Assembly: GCA_965153285.1 (NCBI GenBank)
Contig: OZ229110.1
DNA: 64,000 nt
Origin: Podarcis tiliguerta
Lineage: Eukaryota
Reading direction: 5' to 3' (one strand)
Made by a program: the position numbers. Positions 32,901 to 41,900 of the stretch are shown piece after piece (the first letter of the stretch is position 1; every line of letters begins with the position of its first letter).

Positions 32901-35900
32901 CCCACCCACCCTAACTAAGCTTGCAATCCTCCTGGAGGGCGCCAATTGATCCATTCCAACTTTGTACCTTGAGTAATTGACGCTCGCAAGTCAAAAGACT
33001 ATGGGCCAGTGAATGCCACCTAATAATCAGACTTTGCCTGCAGCTGGTGTGTCCTTTGAATTCCCCAGCGTGGTACATTCTAACAACTCAAGACTCTAAC
33101 ATGTGTGCAGTGACTCAGGAGGGCAGTCTTGCTCATCCTCTCTAATTGTTGTGTTACCTCCTGTGCCCTTTTCCTGAAGGGGGGTAGGGATAAGGGCAGC
33201 AGGCCTTGTGCCCCTTCCCCCCAAATCAGTGTTGTTATTGGTGTGTATTGACAATTTGTGATACTTGGTTTTCTACTGCATCCTTGGAATAAATATTTAT
33301 TTTTAAACTACTGTAGCTATGTGGAGCTTCAGACAAACATTGGTACACTGAGAGAACAGTGGTGCTCCTAGAAGCATGGGGGACCCCTCTTGGGGTGAAG
33401 AGAGGTACACATCTTTAAGATAACTGAGGCTTTGCAAATCATCCTAACTGCATGAAGGCGGTTCAGAAGGGACCTCATGGGCACAGAAAGTTTTTGCATA
33501 AGGAAATTCACATTCAAGGGTCCTGGCTTGGGTCTGCTGTAGGTAGCAGAGCTTTCATTTAGAGTTCAAGTATGCCCTGTGTGAGGGAGGATCTACGGAG
33601 GAAGGGTCATTTCCAAGAGGTCTAACACATGGGCCAATTGGGCATCAGTTGAGATAAGCATGAAGTAAGCCCACACAGAAAAAGTTTATTGGTGGGAAGA
33701 GCAAGGTCAGATGCTCTCAGAAATGGAACAGTGTTGCTCCAGATGCGTCTGAAGCCCCTGCCCATAGTCGGCCTCCTTGCTCAGCCACAAAAAACTTGTT
33801 GTTGGGTGCTTTGATGATCAGGCAGCTGGAGGATGCAAACTGGATGGTGAAATTGCTGGGACGGTCACTGTTTACCAAGATTTGTCCATCGTTATCCAGA
33901 GCCCAGTACTTGCTGCCTGCAGGTCAAGTGGCAGAATTAGTGGAAGGAAGGGTGAGGGTCAGGGAAGGTTAGAGGCGTGGCAAGACCAGCTCTTAGATCT
34001 CTCCGACTTTTACGAGGTAAAAGAATCACAGGTAATTAGGATATGCTTGTCATGGCAATACTAGGTATGGTTTAGAAAGAAAGCATGTATAAAGGGAAAA
34101 CATGACCGACACCTAGAATAATAAGAGTTGGAAGGGACCCAAGGGTCATCTAGTCCAACGCCCTGCAACACAGGAATCACAGCTAAATCAACCATGGCAG
34201 ATGGCCATCCAACCTGAACAGTAGTTTATCCTTAATTGGGCCTAGGAAACTATTGTCCAGGGGTCATGGAGCAAAACAAATGGCAAAGGGGGGAAAATAG
34301 TGATGATGCGCTCTTTTGCATTGTTTTGGTTTGGGAAAGCAAGTTTTGGCTCCCTCTTATGGCTACGTATAAACTAGGCTTGTTTTTATAAAAATCCTTT
34401 GATGGCAGCTCCCATTTATGAGTAGGTCATGTTTCTCTCGCAACACAGATACTAGGAGACCCCAACCCCTTGGAATATACTTAGTCCCACCTGGAAACAT
34501 ACTAACCAACTTGGAAGTTGTAGTAGCCTTCCTCGGTGAGCGACAGGCTGCTGGCAACATAGCTGACGCAGTTCCCTTCCAACTTCCTCATGTCAGAACA
34601 CAGACCCACGTAGCCGGCATCACTGTGCAGGACAAGCAGGGGCCGGTTCACCAGCACCAGCAGGAAATCTTCACTCTTCCCTGAAGGTACAAGGGAAACC
34701 TTTAGCATTGGCCGCACCTGGCTTTCAAAGAGAACTATTTTGCCACCCTTCCTTTTGCTCTCAAGAGGCAATCAGCTCCCAAGGGAAAGTCAACTTCAGT
34801 GCTAAAGATCAGGAGAAATCGCCCCACACTGAGAAGCCAGGCTGAGTGTTGTAACAGGGGCCCAGAATTCACAATGTCTCCCTCTAGTCTTTCTTACTTG
34901 ATTCAAGGTGCTGCTTATGGCACAGAAAGCTTTTAATGGCTTGGACTTCAAATACTGTTCTTCCCTTGGGTTTTATCCCGATTTCTACTGTCAGTGGCAT
35001 TTGCCCTAAAGTTCATTCAAATAACCACTATGGACAACAACTGCACAGCTGTTTCTGGTGGTGGTTCCCCCCAAACTGGAACTCATTCTCTGACTGCTTC
35101 CCAGATCATATTACAGAAACAATGTCAACCTACTTGGTATGCAGTTCTGGGGGCCAGGATTATATGCACAGAGGGGCAGTGTTTTAGTGAGTCTTAGGGT
35201 GTTTTTTTCTCTTTCATCCAGGCTGTATTTGTAGTGATGTTAGCTACTCCAAAGCGTAAGGAAGGGAGTGTAAACAGAACTCATTCCATCTTGCAAGAGC
35301 AAGATTATGAAAGTTTTGGTTGCTGATTTCCAACAAGAAGCCCTTGAGGTGTCTAAAAAGCCATTTCACAGGATGGGCTTAAGGTTGGCTCCCCATGTTC
35401 CAGTTTTATATCCAGGGACAGCTTGGTTTCTGTGCAAAGACTTTCCCCACATTATTCCTCTAGAGGGCTATCTAGGGAGTTAGTGGAAGGCTGTCGCTTC
35501 CATTCCTTTCCCCTAGAATTACCTAAAGCTAATTTGCAGCTGGCAGTGTGCAATCTCTCTTCCCACCCTAGCTGTGTTCACCTGTCCACACTGATGCCCT
35601 GGTGCTTGTAAGAGAAGCTCTCTACCAGTTTGTACCTGCAGCTTTGGGAATTGCCAGGAGCTGTCCATTGGGCCGCATGGACACTTGCTTGTCTGCTATG
35701 CGGAGACACACCTTTTGGTCTTGGTACTGGATGTCGAACCAGACATTCCTGTCCTGTTTGGTGTTGCTGTTAATACAGTCATTAGGACCCTGCAAAAGAC
35801 AGGATGCATTCGTTGGAAAGTGCTTTTTGTGTTTTTGGCTTACTTTGTCTGATAGAAACCTCCTGCAGCAGTCCCTTTATCAGCTACGTTCTGAGATCCA

Positions 35901-38900: not shown

Positions 38901-41900
38901 CAACCCTTTCGAGTTCCCTATTCCTGTATGCCCTTAACATTTCCCATTGTATTTCCCTTACCTAGAATCTCATATATCATTTGTACATGTGTGTAAACAG
39001 CCCCCTGTGCTTTGTTCTGATAGGCAAGTTGATGTTCATTGGGTCTCAGCTTTGTACAGTGTTGGTGGTGCTGACACTGCATTTGTTTCCTTGTAGATTA
39101 CACCCTATTTTTCTTGCATAGTTACTTTGGGGGTTTACGTGTGTGCTTGATAAAGCTAGAGGCCATGACCCCCAACCCAGGTATAGTGAGATGTGCCATG
39201 GGCACATGCAGGCTAAGATTAGGATTGAAGTCATGTTCTCATCTGCACTAACACACGCCTTTATCCACACTACATGTGTGTTTTAAAAACTGGCTGTATT
39301 AGATTCTTTAGCCTAGTGTGCAATTTCACTTAAAAGTGTGTGTGTGAGAGTGGGGAACCTCCAACATCAATACGGTCAGGAAAGAGGATTTGCACTTGGA
39401 AACTTCTCTGCACAGACAATTCCCTTTCTTGTCTTATTTGGAAAGTTTGCACTGGTGTCTAACTTACCAGAAAGTCTTGCATAGGGCAATTAGTAGTTCT
39501 AAGAATTACCCAAGCTAATTAATGATGTTAAGGAAATCAAAATTCCTGCCAGCCACAGTGACTTCTTGGGTAAACAGAATTTGAATTCACCTGGTATGTA
39601 TGGGGAAAATTGCCTTCTCTCACCATTGGATTCCAGACCTATTGGAGGAGATGCAAATGACTCAAACTGAACTTTTTCACACATCAATAACAGAGGACTA
39701 TCTTAGAAGGTGCTTGGGTGGCTTTTGGATTGAGATGTGTAAATAAGGCAGTGTCACTCAAACTTTTTGAATTAAGACCTTCCACTTAGAAACACTTTCT
39801 GCCTTCCCAGGCCACCCCACCCACCTGTAGCACTTAGAAATCCTCATGTACAGGTAAAATCACAAGCAGACAAACATCTGTAGAATAAAGCAGCAACTTT
39901 CTCACTGTGGGAGGAGAAAGCCTGTGACCAGTACAGACTTTCTCCATCTCTCAAGTCTTTCCAGGTGTTCAGACTTACCCCAGGTGTCTGCTCCATAGTT
40001 GGAGAGGGTAACAGAAAACTTTAAACAATCCTTAGTTCAGAAGAAGCAACTTTCTTATTAGTATGGTAGCTATAAGTCCTCATCTGCAACAGGAATTACT
40101 GTAAGTGTGTGTGTGTGTGTAACCCTACAGCAGAATGTTTTGCTTCTTTAACACGCTCCCCCAACAAAGGGGGGGGGGGAGATGTGTGTTACAGTATTAG
40201 AGAGAAAAATGCACATATCAATTGAAAACAAAATAGGAAAATGCCACCACCCACCTCTGAAATCATAGTAGATAGTGATGACTGATTCAGCTCCCCAGGG
40301 CATGTCACGGTCACAGCGCAGCACCCCCGTTTTATCATCACACCGCACATAACGCTTCCTGTTGGGGTTGTACATGGCAACATTGGGGTGCACAGCCAGG
40401 TGGAGGGTCCATTTTTCAGTTTCGGTGGCAGCCTGGGCAAAGCAAGTGACGTTCTCCTCTGCTCCACCCAGGTAGCGCTTGGACTGTTCATTTTGCAAGG
40501 ACACCTGCAGGGAGGGAAGGATGTCTGGTCAGCTACATTGCCCAAGACAAGAAAAGCAGGAACACTCTCAATGAGAGCAAAGAACATGGCAGAATAAAAT
40601 TCAGGTATCATTACACCAATTACGTTACACCTTTGGGCTTATGGAGTTGCCATGATCACCCAAGTTCCATTGTGCAACAGTTGTTTCCAGTTGTGCATGG
40701 GACATGGCTAGGGCACCTTGAAGGATACACCAGGCAACTAACTCTTAGCACAGGTACTCAAATAAGCTATTCAGACACATTCTCTCCCCTTCAACCCATA
40801 GTGGCTGACTATCATACTGTTTGGCTGACAGGGGCAAAGAGCTTTGGCTCATGTGACTGGCTTCCCAAGGAGACCATGGGGAGGAAAGTCCAGGGACATT
40901 TTGCACTCTTCCTGATGCACTTTACAGCCCTGCAGGTCAAGTGCAGGAATCTGCTGCCTGGACTTACCTGTAAGAATCTAGAAAAACCCTGCTTCTCACC
41001 ACAGCAAACTAGTCTGCAAATCGAGCTCAATCCTGCCCTCATTTCCGCCTCTTAATTGTAAAAAAACATTTGTAAGCAAAACAAGAGGCCCACATTTGGG
41101 CAATAGCGGCATAGTTTTGAGGCCCTATTGAGGCAACTTTCAGCATTGTTTCCCTACCTTCTGCCCTCCGTCTCACTCACCCAACCACACCCAACCCTCT
41201 TTGTCCAGAATTCCAGCCCGATAATATCGGACATAAGCTACACTTGAGAGATAGGATGCTTGTGCCTGGGTGAGAGACAGCACCTTGCCATCTGGATACT
41301 GATGCAAGAGGAAGAAGGTCTGAGGCCCTGGTTTGTCCTGGTCACAGGTGACTTTTCCATTTGCGTCAGCCGCCAAGTAGCGTTTCAGTGCACTGATCAG
41401 GTGAAGCTTTTGGCCAGCCCCTTCTCCTGGGCCAGCTGCCCCTGCTCCCTGTGGGCTCACAAACTGCAGTATCCACAACTGGCGAGGCTTCAGTTGCTTG
41501 CCTGTGGCTGCCACCTGGAAACGGAAAGGTTCAGCAGTCAGGTACCGGTTGGCCGCATTAACAAGGCCAAATTCTAGTGAGTATGTCATGGTGAGAATAA
41601 CAAGAGACTTGAATGGTACCCATTCATCAGACCAGTTATCTGGGCTCACTTGAGATTAATCCTGGTCCCTTAGATCACAATCATCACCTAGCAACCAGGT
41701 AAACCCACCCACTCAGCATTAAGCCCCTCCCACAGACTGTTCACCACTCAAGCTGCATTCTGAAAGTACTACCACCTCACCCGCCAGTCACAGGCAGATG
41801 CCCTTTTATGACAAACCTTCAGGAAGGTGAAACACAAACCATCTGTGCAAGCCTATGATGCCCAGAAACATTTCACTGAATGCCACTAGCAATCAGGACA

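What the first reader, a model, noticed from the sequence alone, without database searches (positions are those of the whole stretch)
35636..41589. Mosaic intron pattern of the fascin-like gene: two extra 5' introns plus an FSCN3-type 119-nt exon
Seen: coding exon sizes are 306/250/282/119/154/174/200. As I recall, FSCN1 and FSCN2 encode the first ~830 nt in one exon followed by a 157-nt exon. Here that first exon is split by two extra introns (phase 0 after PDGK, phase 1 after DFR), and the next exon is 119 nt ending in phase 0, which I recall as the FSCN3 arrangement. The N-terminal sequence nevertheless looks FSCN1/2-like, while some motifs (GGLVAL.DEEG, VSIRS, GYVG, APN) look FSCN3-like. 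Inference: a slower-evolving sister of FSCN3, useful for reconstructing fascin duplications.
Basis: partly seen in the sequence, partly recalled or inferred. Interest (0 to 1): 0.7.

Follow-up and report, generated by a model that had tools for sequence, protein, structure and literature searches.

The report
Intron-rich third-type fascin gene beside CPSF7
This is an intact reptile-type gene for an actin-bundling fascin protein that carries more introns than the well-known fascin genes and sits at a different chromosomal place from all three mammalian fascin genes, so it may help reconstruct how the family duplicated.

Summary
A minus-strand fascin gene has seven coding exons of 306/250/282/119/154/174/200 nt. 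All six introns are GT-AG, with phases 0,1,1,0,1,1, and the total is 1485 nt (494 codons plus stop).

Every exon matches human fascin-1 colinearly, covering residues 11-492 at about 39% identity.

Papers show that FSCN2 has 5 exons and that its exon 3 is 122 nt (c.984-1105). Compared with FSCN2, this gene therefore has two extra 5' introns, and a phase-0 intron 32 nt upstream of FSCN2's phase-2 intron.

I could not test whether the 119-nt exon is "FSCN3-type". The one human FSCN3 boundary in print (exon start c.1121, phase 1, Gly374) matches intron 5 here, but that paper calls the exon "exon 5", whereas here it is exon 6.

New result: the gene lies between a TMEM216-type gene and CPSF7, not beside PAX4/SND1 (mammalian FSCN3) or an actin gene (FSCN1/2).

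My best reading is a third-type fascin separate from mammalian FSCN3 (0.45). The main rival is an FSCN3 orthologue that changed place (0.35). Interest is moderate.

The parts
41284..41589 (-). Coding exon 1, 306 nt, starts with ATG (A at -3) and ends in phase 0 after ...PDGK. It maps to fascin-1 residues 11-100 and carries a 9-residue Gly/Ala-rich insertion.
   Evidence: Pfam Fascin 5e-11
40255..40504 (-). Coding exon 2, 250 nt, ends in phase 1 after ...DFR. It maps to fascin-1 residues 102-181.
   Evidence: Pfam Fascin 1.5e-4, 22.3 bits, just under the cut-off
38458..38739 (-). Coding exon 3, 282 nt, ends in phase 1 within a split Gly codon after nt 838. It maps to fascin-1 residues 185-269.
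   Evidence: Pfam Fascin 2.4e-9
37429..37547 (-). Coding exon 4, 119 nt, ends in phase 0. It maps to fascin-1 residues 280-317.
35636..35789 (-). Coding exon 5, 154 nt, ends in phase 1 within a split Gly codon after nt 1111. It maps to fascin-1 residues 329-366. The FSCN2 phase-2 intron would fall 32 nt into this exon.
34507..34680 (-). Coding exon 6, 174 nt, ends in phase 1. It maps to fascin-1 residues 373-425.
33717..33916 (-). Coding exon 7, 200 nt including the TGA stop (33717-33719). It maps to fascin-1 residues 431-492.
   Evidence: Pfam Fascin 1.3e-6
33685..33690 (-). AATAAA 27 nt downstream of the stop codon; likely polyadenylation signal, implying a very short 3' UTR (inference).
41590..42589 (-). 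Upstream 1 kb without a CpG island (GC 0.44, CpG observed/expected 0.23). It contains a dispersed-repeat copy at 41966-42222.
37728..38089 (+). CpG-rich SINE-like insertion in intron 3, flanked by a 12-nt direct duplication (37716-37727 and 38090-38101). It is not part of the coding model.
   Evidence: read directly; CpG-rich stretch; no tRNA or Rfam call
30271..31655 (+). Downstream neighbour, convergent: exons of a Transmemb_17-family (TMEM216-type) gene.
   Evidence: Pfam PF09799 3.7e-15 and 2.1e-5
46953..55216 (-). Upstream neighbour on the same strand: CPSF7 exons.
   Evidence: PDB 3n9u_C CPSF7 1.8e-21, against CPSF6 6.4e-4; Pfam RSLD_CPSF6 8.5e-24 and 4.7e-11

Best explanation
The region holds one intact fascin-family gene with seven coding exons and 494 codons. 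It encodes a four-beta-trefoil actin-bundling protein of a third type that is neither FSCN1 nor FSCN2.

It lies tail to tail with a TMEM216-type gene and directly downstream of CPSF7, inside a Dak2-domain gene / cytochrome b561 / TMEM138 / TMEM216-type / CPSF7 block. I take it to be a paralogue separate from the mammalian FSCN3 locus gene. It probably belongs to the same intron-rich lineage as FSCN3 and is absent from this block in mammals; that absence is my recall of the human map.

The 'mosaic' is not a recombinant. It is what differential intron retention and loss among old paralogues leaves behind:
- The introns after nt 838, 1111 and 1285 sit where I recall FSCN1/2 introns. The 1111 one corresponds by phase and position to printed FSCN2 and FSCN3 boundaries.
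- The introns after nt 306 and 556 split what is one exon in FSCN2.
- The phase-0 intron after nt 957 stands in for FSCN2's phase-2 intron 32 nt further on.

Shown: exon model, family, colinearity, neighbours, differences from FSCN2.

Inferred: actin bundling, tissue-restricted expression, paralogue status, direction of intron change.
For: - Exon model and phases.
- 7 of 7 exons best-hit fascin-1 in colinear order. Pfam Fascin.
- Single copy in the window: each exon hits only itself at E<0.01 by tblastn.
- Basic actin-binding residues named in the review (PMC8616296 section 2) are kept. K22, K41 and K43 align with R, K, R; K241/K244/K247/K250 align with R, K, K, R. R149-K150-R151, which I recall as actin-binding residues, align with RKR.
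- About 39% identity to fascin-1 (175/444, hand count). This lies between the figures a review gives for FSCN2 (56%) and FSCN3 (29%) (PMC8616296 passage).
- Neighbours: Dak2 6.9e-12, Cytochrom_B561 5e-22 and 9e-13, TMEM138 1.7e-19, Transmemb_17 3.7e-15, CPSF7 1.8e-21.
- Mammalian FSCN3 lies with PAX4 upstream of SND1 (PMC6297716 passages) and, with ARF5, downstream of PAX4 (PMC3563606 supplementary-file legend). A GCC1-ARF5-FSCN3-PAX4 block is called a conserved neighbourhood in 'other vertebrate genomes' (PMC3759438 passage).
- Human FSCN3 c.1175 is nucleotide 55 of 'exon 5' (PMC12904016 Table 1). The homologous exon here is exon 6, so the gene structures appear to differ.
Against:
- The FSCN3 row of that table is internally inconsistent (68 bp against a 19-residue deletion), so its exon number may be unreliable.
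- I do not know whether this genome also has a fascin gene beside ARF5/SND1. If it has none, a moved orthologue is the simpler reading.
- The absence of a fascin gene between TMEM216 and CPSF7 in mammals is my recall, not a call.
- The listings of my ten literature searches show no fourth vertebrate fascin. In one search, FSCN4 and fascin-4 have 0 occurrences in the 20 papers listed of 54.
- Expression and protein function are untested.
Confidence: 0.45

Rival explanations
1. It is the true orthologue of mammalian FSCN3. One lineage moved the gene: either the mammalian ancestor, to the ARF5-PAX4 interval, or the reptile lineage, to the TMEM216-CPSF7 interval. The mammalian copy then evolved faster and altered its introns.
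For: - Only three vertebrate fascins are described in the papers I saw (PMC4996939 and PMC8616296 passages).
- FSCN3 beside PAX4 is stated for mammals, while fish have other genes there (PMC3563606 legend).
- The phase-1 intron in a Gly codon is shared: c.1120/1121 at Gly374 in human FSCN3 and nt 1111/1112 here.
- The quoted motifs differ from fascin-1 at the aligned places.
Against: - Different neighbours on both sides.
- The homologous exon is numbered 5 in human FSCN3 but is exon 6 here. Intron positions rarely change between amniote orthologues (general knowledge).
- The shared intron is not diagnostic, because FSCN2 has a phase-1 intron at the corresponding point (c.1105).
Confidence: 0.35
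2. It is a lineage-specific duplicate of FSCN1 or FSCN2 that diverged and gained introns.
For: Exons 1 and 2 are the most fascin-1-like (43/90 and 35/79 identical). Three intron positions agree with those I recall for FSCN1/2.
Against: - It would need two or three intron gains plus one loss. Intron gain is very rare in vertebrates (general knowledge).
- Overall identity to fascin-1 is only about 39%, below the 56% between FSCN1 and FSCN2.
[quoted passage not shown] The actin motif scan has low sensitivity.
Confidence: 0.07
3. It is an unexpressed or decaying gene copy whose frame happens still to be open.
For: No CpG island at the 5' end. A repeat copy lies about 380 nt upstream of the ATG. 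No expression data are available.
Against: - 494 codons run without a stop across seven exons.
- 6 of 6 introns have canonical GT-AG ends and pyrimidine tracts.
- An AATAAA lies 27 nt after the stop.
- Basic actin-binding residues are kept.
- Promoters without CpG islands are normal for tissue-restricted genes.
Confidence: 0.05

Closest known systems
FSCN3 (testis fascin, mammals)
   Same: - It belongs to the fascin family.
- It is divergent from FSCN1/2.
- It has more exons than the 5 of FSCN1/2; the figure of 7 exons is my recall.
- It shares the phase-1 intron inside a Gly codon (human c.1120/1121, Gly374), which equals intron 5 here.
This was not tested.
   Different: - Mammalian FSCN3 lies with PAX4, ARF5 and SND1. 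This gene lies between a TMEM216-type gene and CPSF7.
- The exon after the shared intron is called exon 5 in human FSCN3 and is exon 6 here.
- This protein is about 39% identical to fascin-1, against the 29% quoted for FSCN3.
FSCN2 (retinal and hair-cell fascin)
   Same: - It has the same four-trefoil fascin layout.
- It has a phase-1 intron after c.1105 that corresponds to nt 1111 here.
   Different: - FSCN2 has 5 exons, with one intron in c.1-983. This gene has four introns in its first 957 nt.
- FSCN2 exon 3 is 122 nt and is preceded by a phase-2 intron. Exon 5 here is 154 nt and is preceded by a phase-0 intron.
- FSCN2 is linked to a cytoplasmic actin gene (title seen).
FSCN1 (fascin-1; PDB 1DFC, 3LLP and others)
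   Same: - Colinear match over residues 11-492.
- Basic residues K22, K41, K43, R149-R151 and the 241-250 loop are kept as K or R.
   Different: - Identity is about 39%.
- FSCN1 has 5 exons, against 7 here.
- The PKC site Ser39 aligns with Gln here.
- This protein has a 9-residue Gly/Ala-rich insertion in trefoil 1.
- The N-terminus here is 7 residues shorter.

Membership tests
Fascin family (Pfam PF06268, four beta-trefoils) | Fascin-domain profile matches | tested here: met
   E<=0.01 in 5 of 7 exon blocks. Above the gathering score in 3 of 7: exon 1 at 43.1 bits, exon 3 at 37.7 bits, exon 7 at 29.0 bits.
Fascin family (Pfam PF06268, four beta-trefoils) | Colinear coverage of all four trefoils of fascin-1 (8-139, 140-260, 261-381, 382-493 per PMC8616296) | tested here: met
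   Seven exon-by-exon PDB searches map to residues 11-100, 102-181, 185-269, 280-317, 329-366, 373-425 and 431-492. The fold itself was not predicted, because that needs the joined protein.
Fascin family (Pfam PF06268, four beta-trefoils) | Bundles actin filaments | not testable with these tools
   Only conservation of basic residues was seen.
FSCN1/FSCN2 orthologue | Five-exon structure with one large first coding exon | tested here: not met
   There are seven coding exons, with introns after nt 306 and 556. FSCN1 and Fscn2 have 5 exons. FSCN2 exon 3 is c.984-1105.
FSCN1/FSCN2 orthologue | Close linkage to a cytoplasmic actin gene (ACTB or ACTG1) | tested here: not met
   Both immediate neighbours are other genes, a TMEM216-type gene and CPSF7. 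Three actin motifs gave 0 hits in six frames, but that scan has low sensitivity. The linkage itself is known to me only from the title of Tubb 2000 in a reference list.
FSCN1/FSCN2 orthologue | High identity to fascin-1 (FSCN2 is 56%) | tested here: not met
   175/444, about 39%, by hand count of HMMER midlines. The 56% figure comes from a PMC8616296 passage.
FSCN3 orthologue | Position beside PAX4, ARF5 and SND1 | tested here: not met
   Neighbours are as above. 0 hits for 6 ARF, PAX and homeobox motifs (low sensitivity).
FSCN3 orthologue | Same intron positions and exon count as FSCN3 | tested here: inconclusive
   One boundary matches (phase 1 in a Gly codon: c.1121 exon start in human, nt 1112 here). 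However, the exon is numbered 5 there and is exon 6 here. The other five FSCN3 boundaries were not available.
FSCN3 orthologue | Groups with FSCN3 in a protein tree; FSCN3-specific residues | not testable with these tools
FSCN3 orthologue | Testis-specific expression | not testable with these tools
   The only evidence is indirect: no CpG island at the 5' end and a short 3' UTR.

The most novel reading that the evidence does not exclude
Vertebrates ancestrally had a fourth fascin gene, the slowly evolving sister of FSCN3. It survives at the TMEM216-CPSF7 locus in reptiles, and perhaps in other non-mammals, but was lost in mammals. Its six introns would include ancestral fascin introns that FSCN1/2 lost. 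That would make this gene the best-preserved witness of the intron-rich pre-duplication fascin, and would show that mammalian FSCN3 is a fast-evolving remnant of a once two-member lineage.
Probability: 0.3. Interest if true: 0.55.

Novelty: new member of a known kind. Interest (0 to 1): 0.35.

Why it matters
Fascins are studied almost only through mammalian FSCN1-3. A well-preserved, intron-rich fascin at a locus that I recall as empty in mammals would add a data point for dating the fascin duplications. It would also help decide whether the large first exon of FSCN1/2 arose by intron loss, and help explain why mammalian FSCN3 is so divergent. In addition, it offers a natural fascin in which the inhibitory PKC site Ser39 is replaced by Gln while the basic actin-binding residues are kept. 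If instead it is simply the reptile FSCN3, the result is a documented gene relocation with a rate change, which is useful but ordinary.

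Tried and rejected
1. FSCN3 gene structure from print. Tubb 2002 is not held. Searches gave only one usable boundary (PMC12904016). PMC3723494 and PMC10606006 mention FSCN3 without structure.

2. Fascin evolution papers. One search found 0 papers. In search 35 I opened one of the 15 listed papers (PMC3257199), and its 'fascin' hit was the word 'fascinating'.

3. A described extra fascin, or a fascin gene near TMEM216/CPSF7. 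One search found 54 papers, 20 listed, none relevant; FSCN4 and fascin-4 have 0 occurrences in those listed. One search gave 4 papers, all human gene lists. The TMEM138-TMEM216 locus paper, tried under a PMC id from memory, is not held.

4. Motif scan for the neighbours of FSCN1/2/3. All 13 patterns gave 0 hits. Two of the 13 were CPSF6/7-type RRM patterns, and they also missed the CPSF7 gene that is present. The scan is therefore weak evidence of absence. The identified flanking genes carry the argument.

5. tRNA scan and Rfam at gathering thresholds found nothing.

6. Further fascin copies or relic exons in the window: none.

7. More of this genome on the script machine: only window.fa is there.

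8. I looked by eye at whether introns 1, 2 and 6 fall at equivalent points of the trefoil repeats, using the alignments. They do not coincide. This was not tested formally.

9. Not used, because they cannot bear on a vertebrate gene or would need the joined protein:
- the genome-contig scan (prokaryotes only);
- the phage, plasmid and E. coli collections;
- the ESM Atlas;
- structure prediction, fold search and complex prediction.

No search for orthologues was therefore possible.

Full report
**What is there.** The fascin-like gene is on the minus strand. Stop-to-stop frames and a scan of AG/GT sites give one consistent model:

| Exon | Coordinates | Length | Note |
|---|---|---|---|
| 1 | 41589..41284 | 306 nt | ATG with A at -3; in-frame stop upstream |
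| 2 | 40504..40255 | 250 nt | |
| 3 | 38739..38458 | 282 nt | |
| 4 | 37547..37429 | 119 nt | |
| 5 | 35789..35636 | 154 nt | |
| 6 | 34680..34507 | 174 nt | |
| 7 | 33916..33717 | 200 nt | includes TGA |

All six introns (779, 1515, 910, 1639, 955 and 590 nt) begin GT and end AG behind pyrimidine-rich tracts. The phases after exons 1-6 are 0,1,1,0,1,1, and the total is 1485 nt, i.e. 494 codons plus stop. Its coordinates (35636-41589) stop at exon 5, and exons 6 and 7 lie below them. The window has no N.

Full-length identity, a structure prediction and a phylogeny are therefore missing from this report.

**Is it a fascin, and is this beyond chance?**
- Each of the 7 exon translations, searched alone against the PDB sequences, has human fascin-1 chains as its best hits. 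The E-values are 9.2e-18, 2.8e-22, 4.1e-17, 2.6e-5, 2.3e-4, 5.1e-3 and 4.3e-7.
- The matches are colinear: fascin-1 residues 11-100, 102-181, 185-269, 280-317, 329-366, 373-425 and 431-492 in 1DFC numbering.
- Pfam Fascin is found at E<=0.01 in 5 of 7 exon blocks and above its curated score in 3 of 7. The exon 5 and exon 6 blocks give no Fascin hit.
- Counting identical letters in the HMMER midlines by hand gives 43/90, 35/79, 32/83, 17/38, 13/37, 19/54 and 16/63. That is 175/444, about 39%. The N-terminal half is clearly more fascin-1-like than the C-terminal end.
- A review puts FSCN2 at 56% and FSCN3 at 29% relative to FSCN1 (PMC8616296, passage), so this protein lies between them.
- A tblastn of each exon against the window finds only the exon itself at E<0.01, so there is one copy.

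**Intron positions in fascin-1 numbering (from the same alignments).**

| Intron | After nt | Phase | Position in fascin-1 |
|---|---|---|---|
| 1 | 306 | 0 | after residue 100 |
| 2 | 556 | 1 | about residues 183-184 |
| 3 | 838 | 1 | split Gly, about residue 278 |
| 4 | 957 | 0 | after residue 317 |
| 5 | 1111 | 1 | split Gly, aligned with Gly371 |
| 6 | 1285 | 1 | split Gly, about residues 428-429 |

**Comparison with FSCN1/2.**
- FSCN1 is said to have 5 exons (PMC8616296, section 2). Mouse Fscn2 has 5 exons (PMC6169377, figure legend).
- PMC8742059 (Table 1 and text passages) lists human FSCN2 c.1105G>A as the last base, '122/122', of an exon followed by intron 3. FSCN2 exon 3 is therefore c.984-1105. 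It is preceded by a phase-2 intron (after c.983) and followed by a phase-1 intron (after c.1105).
- With five exons, FSCN2 has a single intron inside c.1-983. This gene has introns after nt 306, 556, 838 and 957.
- Exon 5 here is 154 nt against FSCN2's 122 nt. The phase-0 intron 4 therefore lies 32 nt upstream of where FSCN2's phase-2 intron would fall. That is a different intron position, not a slipped boundary.
It is arithmetically consistent with the printed FSCN2 numbers: 983-157=826.

**Comparison with FSCN3.** I could not see an FSCN3 gene model. Tubb et al. 2002 is not held, and my memory that FSCN3 has 7 exons is only that.

One boundary can be derived from print. PMC12904016 Table 1 lists FSCN3:c.1175G>A with 'Distance' +55 to the canonical junction, 'Exon 5', and p.G374_R392del. 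This places an exon start at c.1121, i.e. a phase-1 intron inside codon Gly374.

Intron 5 here is also phase 1 inside a Gly codon, so this intron is very likely shared. FSCN2 has a phase-1 intron at the corresponding point too, so this says nothing about which paralogue the gene is closest to.

The same row calls the downstream exon 'exon 5', whereas here it is exon 6. Taken at face value, human FSCN3 has at least one exon fewer upstream than this gene. The row is internally inconsistent (68 bp against 19 residues), so I give this limited weight.

Whether the 119-nt, phase-0 exon is 'FSCN3-type', and whether GGLVAL.DEEG, VSIRS, GYVG and APN are FSCN3-like, stayed untested. What the calls do show is that fascin-1 differs at those aligned places.

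**Neighbourhood (the main new result).** Pfam and PDB searches of open frames identify the following genes:

| Gene | Strand | Frames | Evidence |
|---|---|---|---|
| Dak2-domain C-terminal exon | + | 3965-4165 | 6.9e-12 |
| Cytochrome b561 gene | - | 13460-13744, 14670-15011, 15489-15935 | 9e-13, 5e-22, 0.21 (weak) |
| TMEM138 | + | 23108-23392, 26844-27050 | 1.7e-19, 1e-5 |
| Transmemb_17-family gene of TMEM216 type | + | 30271-30519, 31287-31655 | 2e-5, 3.7e-15 |
| Fascin gene | - | 33717-41589 | see above |
| CPSF7 | - | 46953-55216 | RSLD_CPSF6 8.5e-24 and 4.7e-11 |

For CPSF7, the frame at 52515-52784 matches PDB 3n9u_C, named CPSF7, at 1.8e-21 with 42 of 50 residues identical, against 6.4e-4 for CPSF6.

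Of the 20 frames sent:
- 7 gave no family at all;
- 1 gave only a marginal Cytochrom_B561 hit (E 0.21, the 15489-15935 frame listed above);
- 2 gave only weak unrelated hits.

The frame 12500-12913, which I read by eye as the last cytochrome b561 exon, gave no Pfam family.

This order is the one I recall for human 11q12.2 (TKFC, CYB561A3, TMEM138, TMEM216, CPSF7), where I recall no fascin gene.

By contrast, the papers place mammalian FSCN3 elsewhere:
- PAX4 and FSCN3 lie upstream of SND1 in human, rat and mouse (PMC6297716 passages).
- A 'GCC1-ARF5-FSCN3-PAX4 block' is called a conserved neighbourhood 'in other vertebrate genomes' (PMC3759438 passage). The figure and supplements that would name the species are not visible to me.

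FSCN1/2 are linked to cytoplasmic actin genes according to the title of Tubb 2000, seen in a reference list.

A scan for 13 recalled motifs of ARF, PAX, actin, SND1, GCC1 and RRM proteins gave 0 hits. It also missed the CPSF7 gene that is present, so I rest the argument on the identified flanking genes.

**Protein function (inferred).**
- The review gives trefoil limits, the inhibitory PKC site Ser39, Ser274, and K247/K250 in a lysine-rich loop.
- In the alignments, Ser39 corresponds to Gln here, while K22, K41 and K43 correspond to R, K, R.
- R149-K150-R151, which I recall as actin-binding residues, are RKR here.
- K241, K244, K247 and K250 correspond to R, K, K, R.
- HMMER did not align the Ser274 region.
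- Trefoil 1 carries a 9-residue Gly/Ala-rich insertion.
- I therefore expect an actin-bundling protein that lacks the Ser39 switch.

**Expression (inferred).**
- The 1 kb upstream of the ATG has no CpG island (observed/expected 0.23).
- The neighbours' 5' regions at 20.5-21.5 kb and 28.5-29.5 kb score 0.75 and 0.82.
- An AATAAA lies 27 nt after the stop.
- This suggests tissue-restricted expression with a very short 3' UTR. Which tissue is unknown.

**What it most likely is.** It is not FSCN1 or FSCN2, on structure, identity and neighbours. Between 'separate paralogue of the FSCN3-like, intron-rich kind, not kept at this locus in mammals' (0.45) and 'the FSCN3 orthologue, with one lineage having moved the gene' (0.35), the calls lean slightly to the first. 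The reasons are the different neighbours, the statement of a conserved FSCN3 block in other vertebrates, and the exon-number discrepancy. None of these is decisive.

In either case the 'mosaic' is best read as differential retention and loss of introns among old paralogues rather than recombination between genes. Intron gain is rare in vertebrates (general knowledge), so I think the two 5' introns are more likely old and lost in FSCN1/2. This needs invertebrate fascin gene structures to test.

**Source of the window.** I do not take it for human. It carries a fascin gene where I recall none in human, its CPSF7 exon differs from the human chain at 8 of 50 positions, and it holds SINE-like insertions that I recall as squamate-type. 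I did not try to identify the species or record.

**Unchecked.**
- The figures and supplements of PMC3759438, PMC3563606 and PMC12904016, which may name the species carrying FSCN3 beside PAX4 and the transcript used for exon numbering.
- Expression.
- Full-length fold.

Noticed in passing
window 37716-38101 (intron 3 of the fascin gene): A 362-nt CpG-rich insertion (37728-38089) with a tRNA-like 5' part is flanked by a perfect 12-nt direct duplication (37716-37727 and 38090-38101). It looks like a recently inserted SINE. Frames at about 8220-8650 translate to similar peptides, which suggests another copy. ARAGORN and Rfam call nothing there.
   Followed up: partly
window 16819-17075 and 41966-42222: The only long dispersed repeat pair found: 257 nt, 95% identical. 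The second copy lies about 380 nt upstream of the fascin ATG and adjoins an A-rich run (a poly-Lys frame). It is probably a retroposon.
   Followed up: partly
window 3965-31655 and 46953-55216: The window holds a compact conserved block: a Dak2-domain gene end (+), a cytochrome b561 gene (-), TMEM138 (+), a TMEM216-type gene (+), then CPSF7 (-) beyond the fascin gene. CpG-island-like stretches at 18401-19600, 20501-21500 and 28301-29400 fit the promoters of the b561/TMEM138 pair and of the TMEM216-type gene.
   Followed up: partly
window 41284-41589 (exon 1): The PKC-regulated Ser39 of fascin-1 aligns with Gln, and a 9-residue Gly/Ala-rich insertion interrupts trefoil 1. The neighbouring basic residues are kept.
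   Followed up: partly
window 58262-58474 (+): An open frame rich in Arg resembles, from memory, the conserved C-terminal part of a LINE (BovB/RTE-type) protein. It was not searched.
   Followed up: no
whole window: AATAAA occurs 109 times on both strands, against 55 expected from shuffles (0 of 100 shuffles reach 109). This probably reflects A-rich retroposon tails and AT-rich intergenic DNA.
   Followed up: no
window 40107-40183 (intron 2): A short (GT)n run and a G11 run lie close together. This is ordinary low-complexity sequence.
   Followed up: no
window 1-700: A CpG-island-like stretch sits at the left edge of the window, with GC-rich frames on both strands. It was not assigned to a gene.
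   Followed up: no
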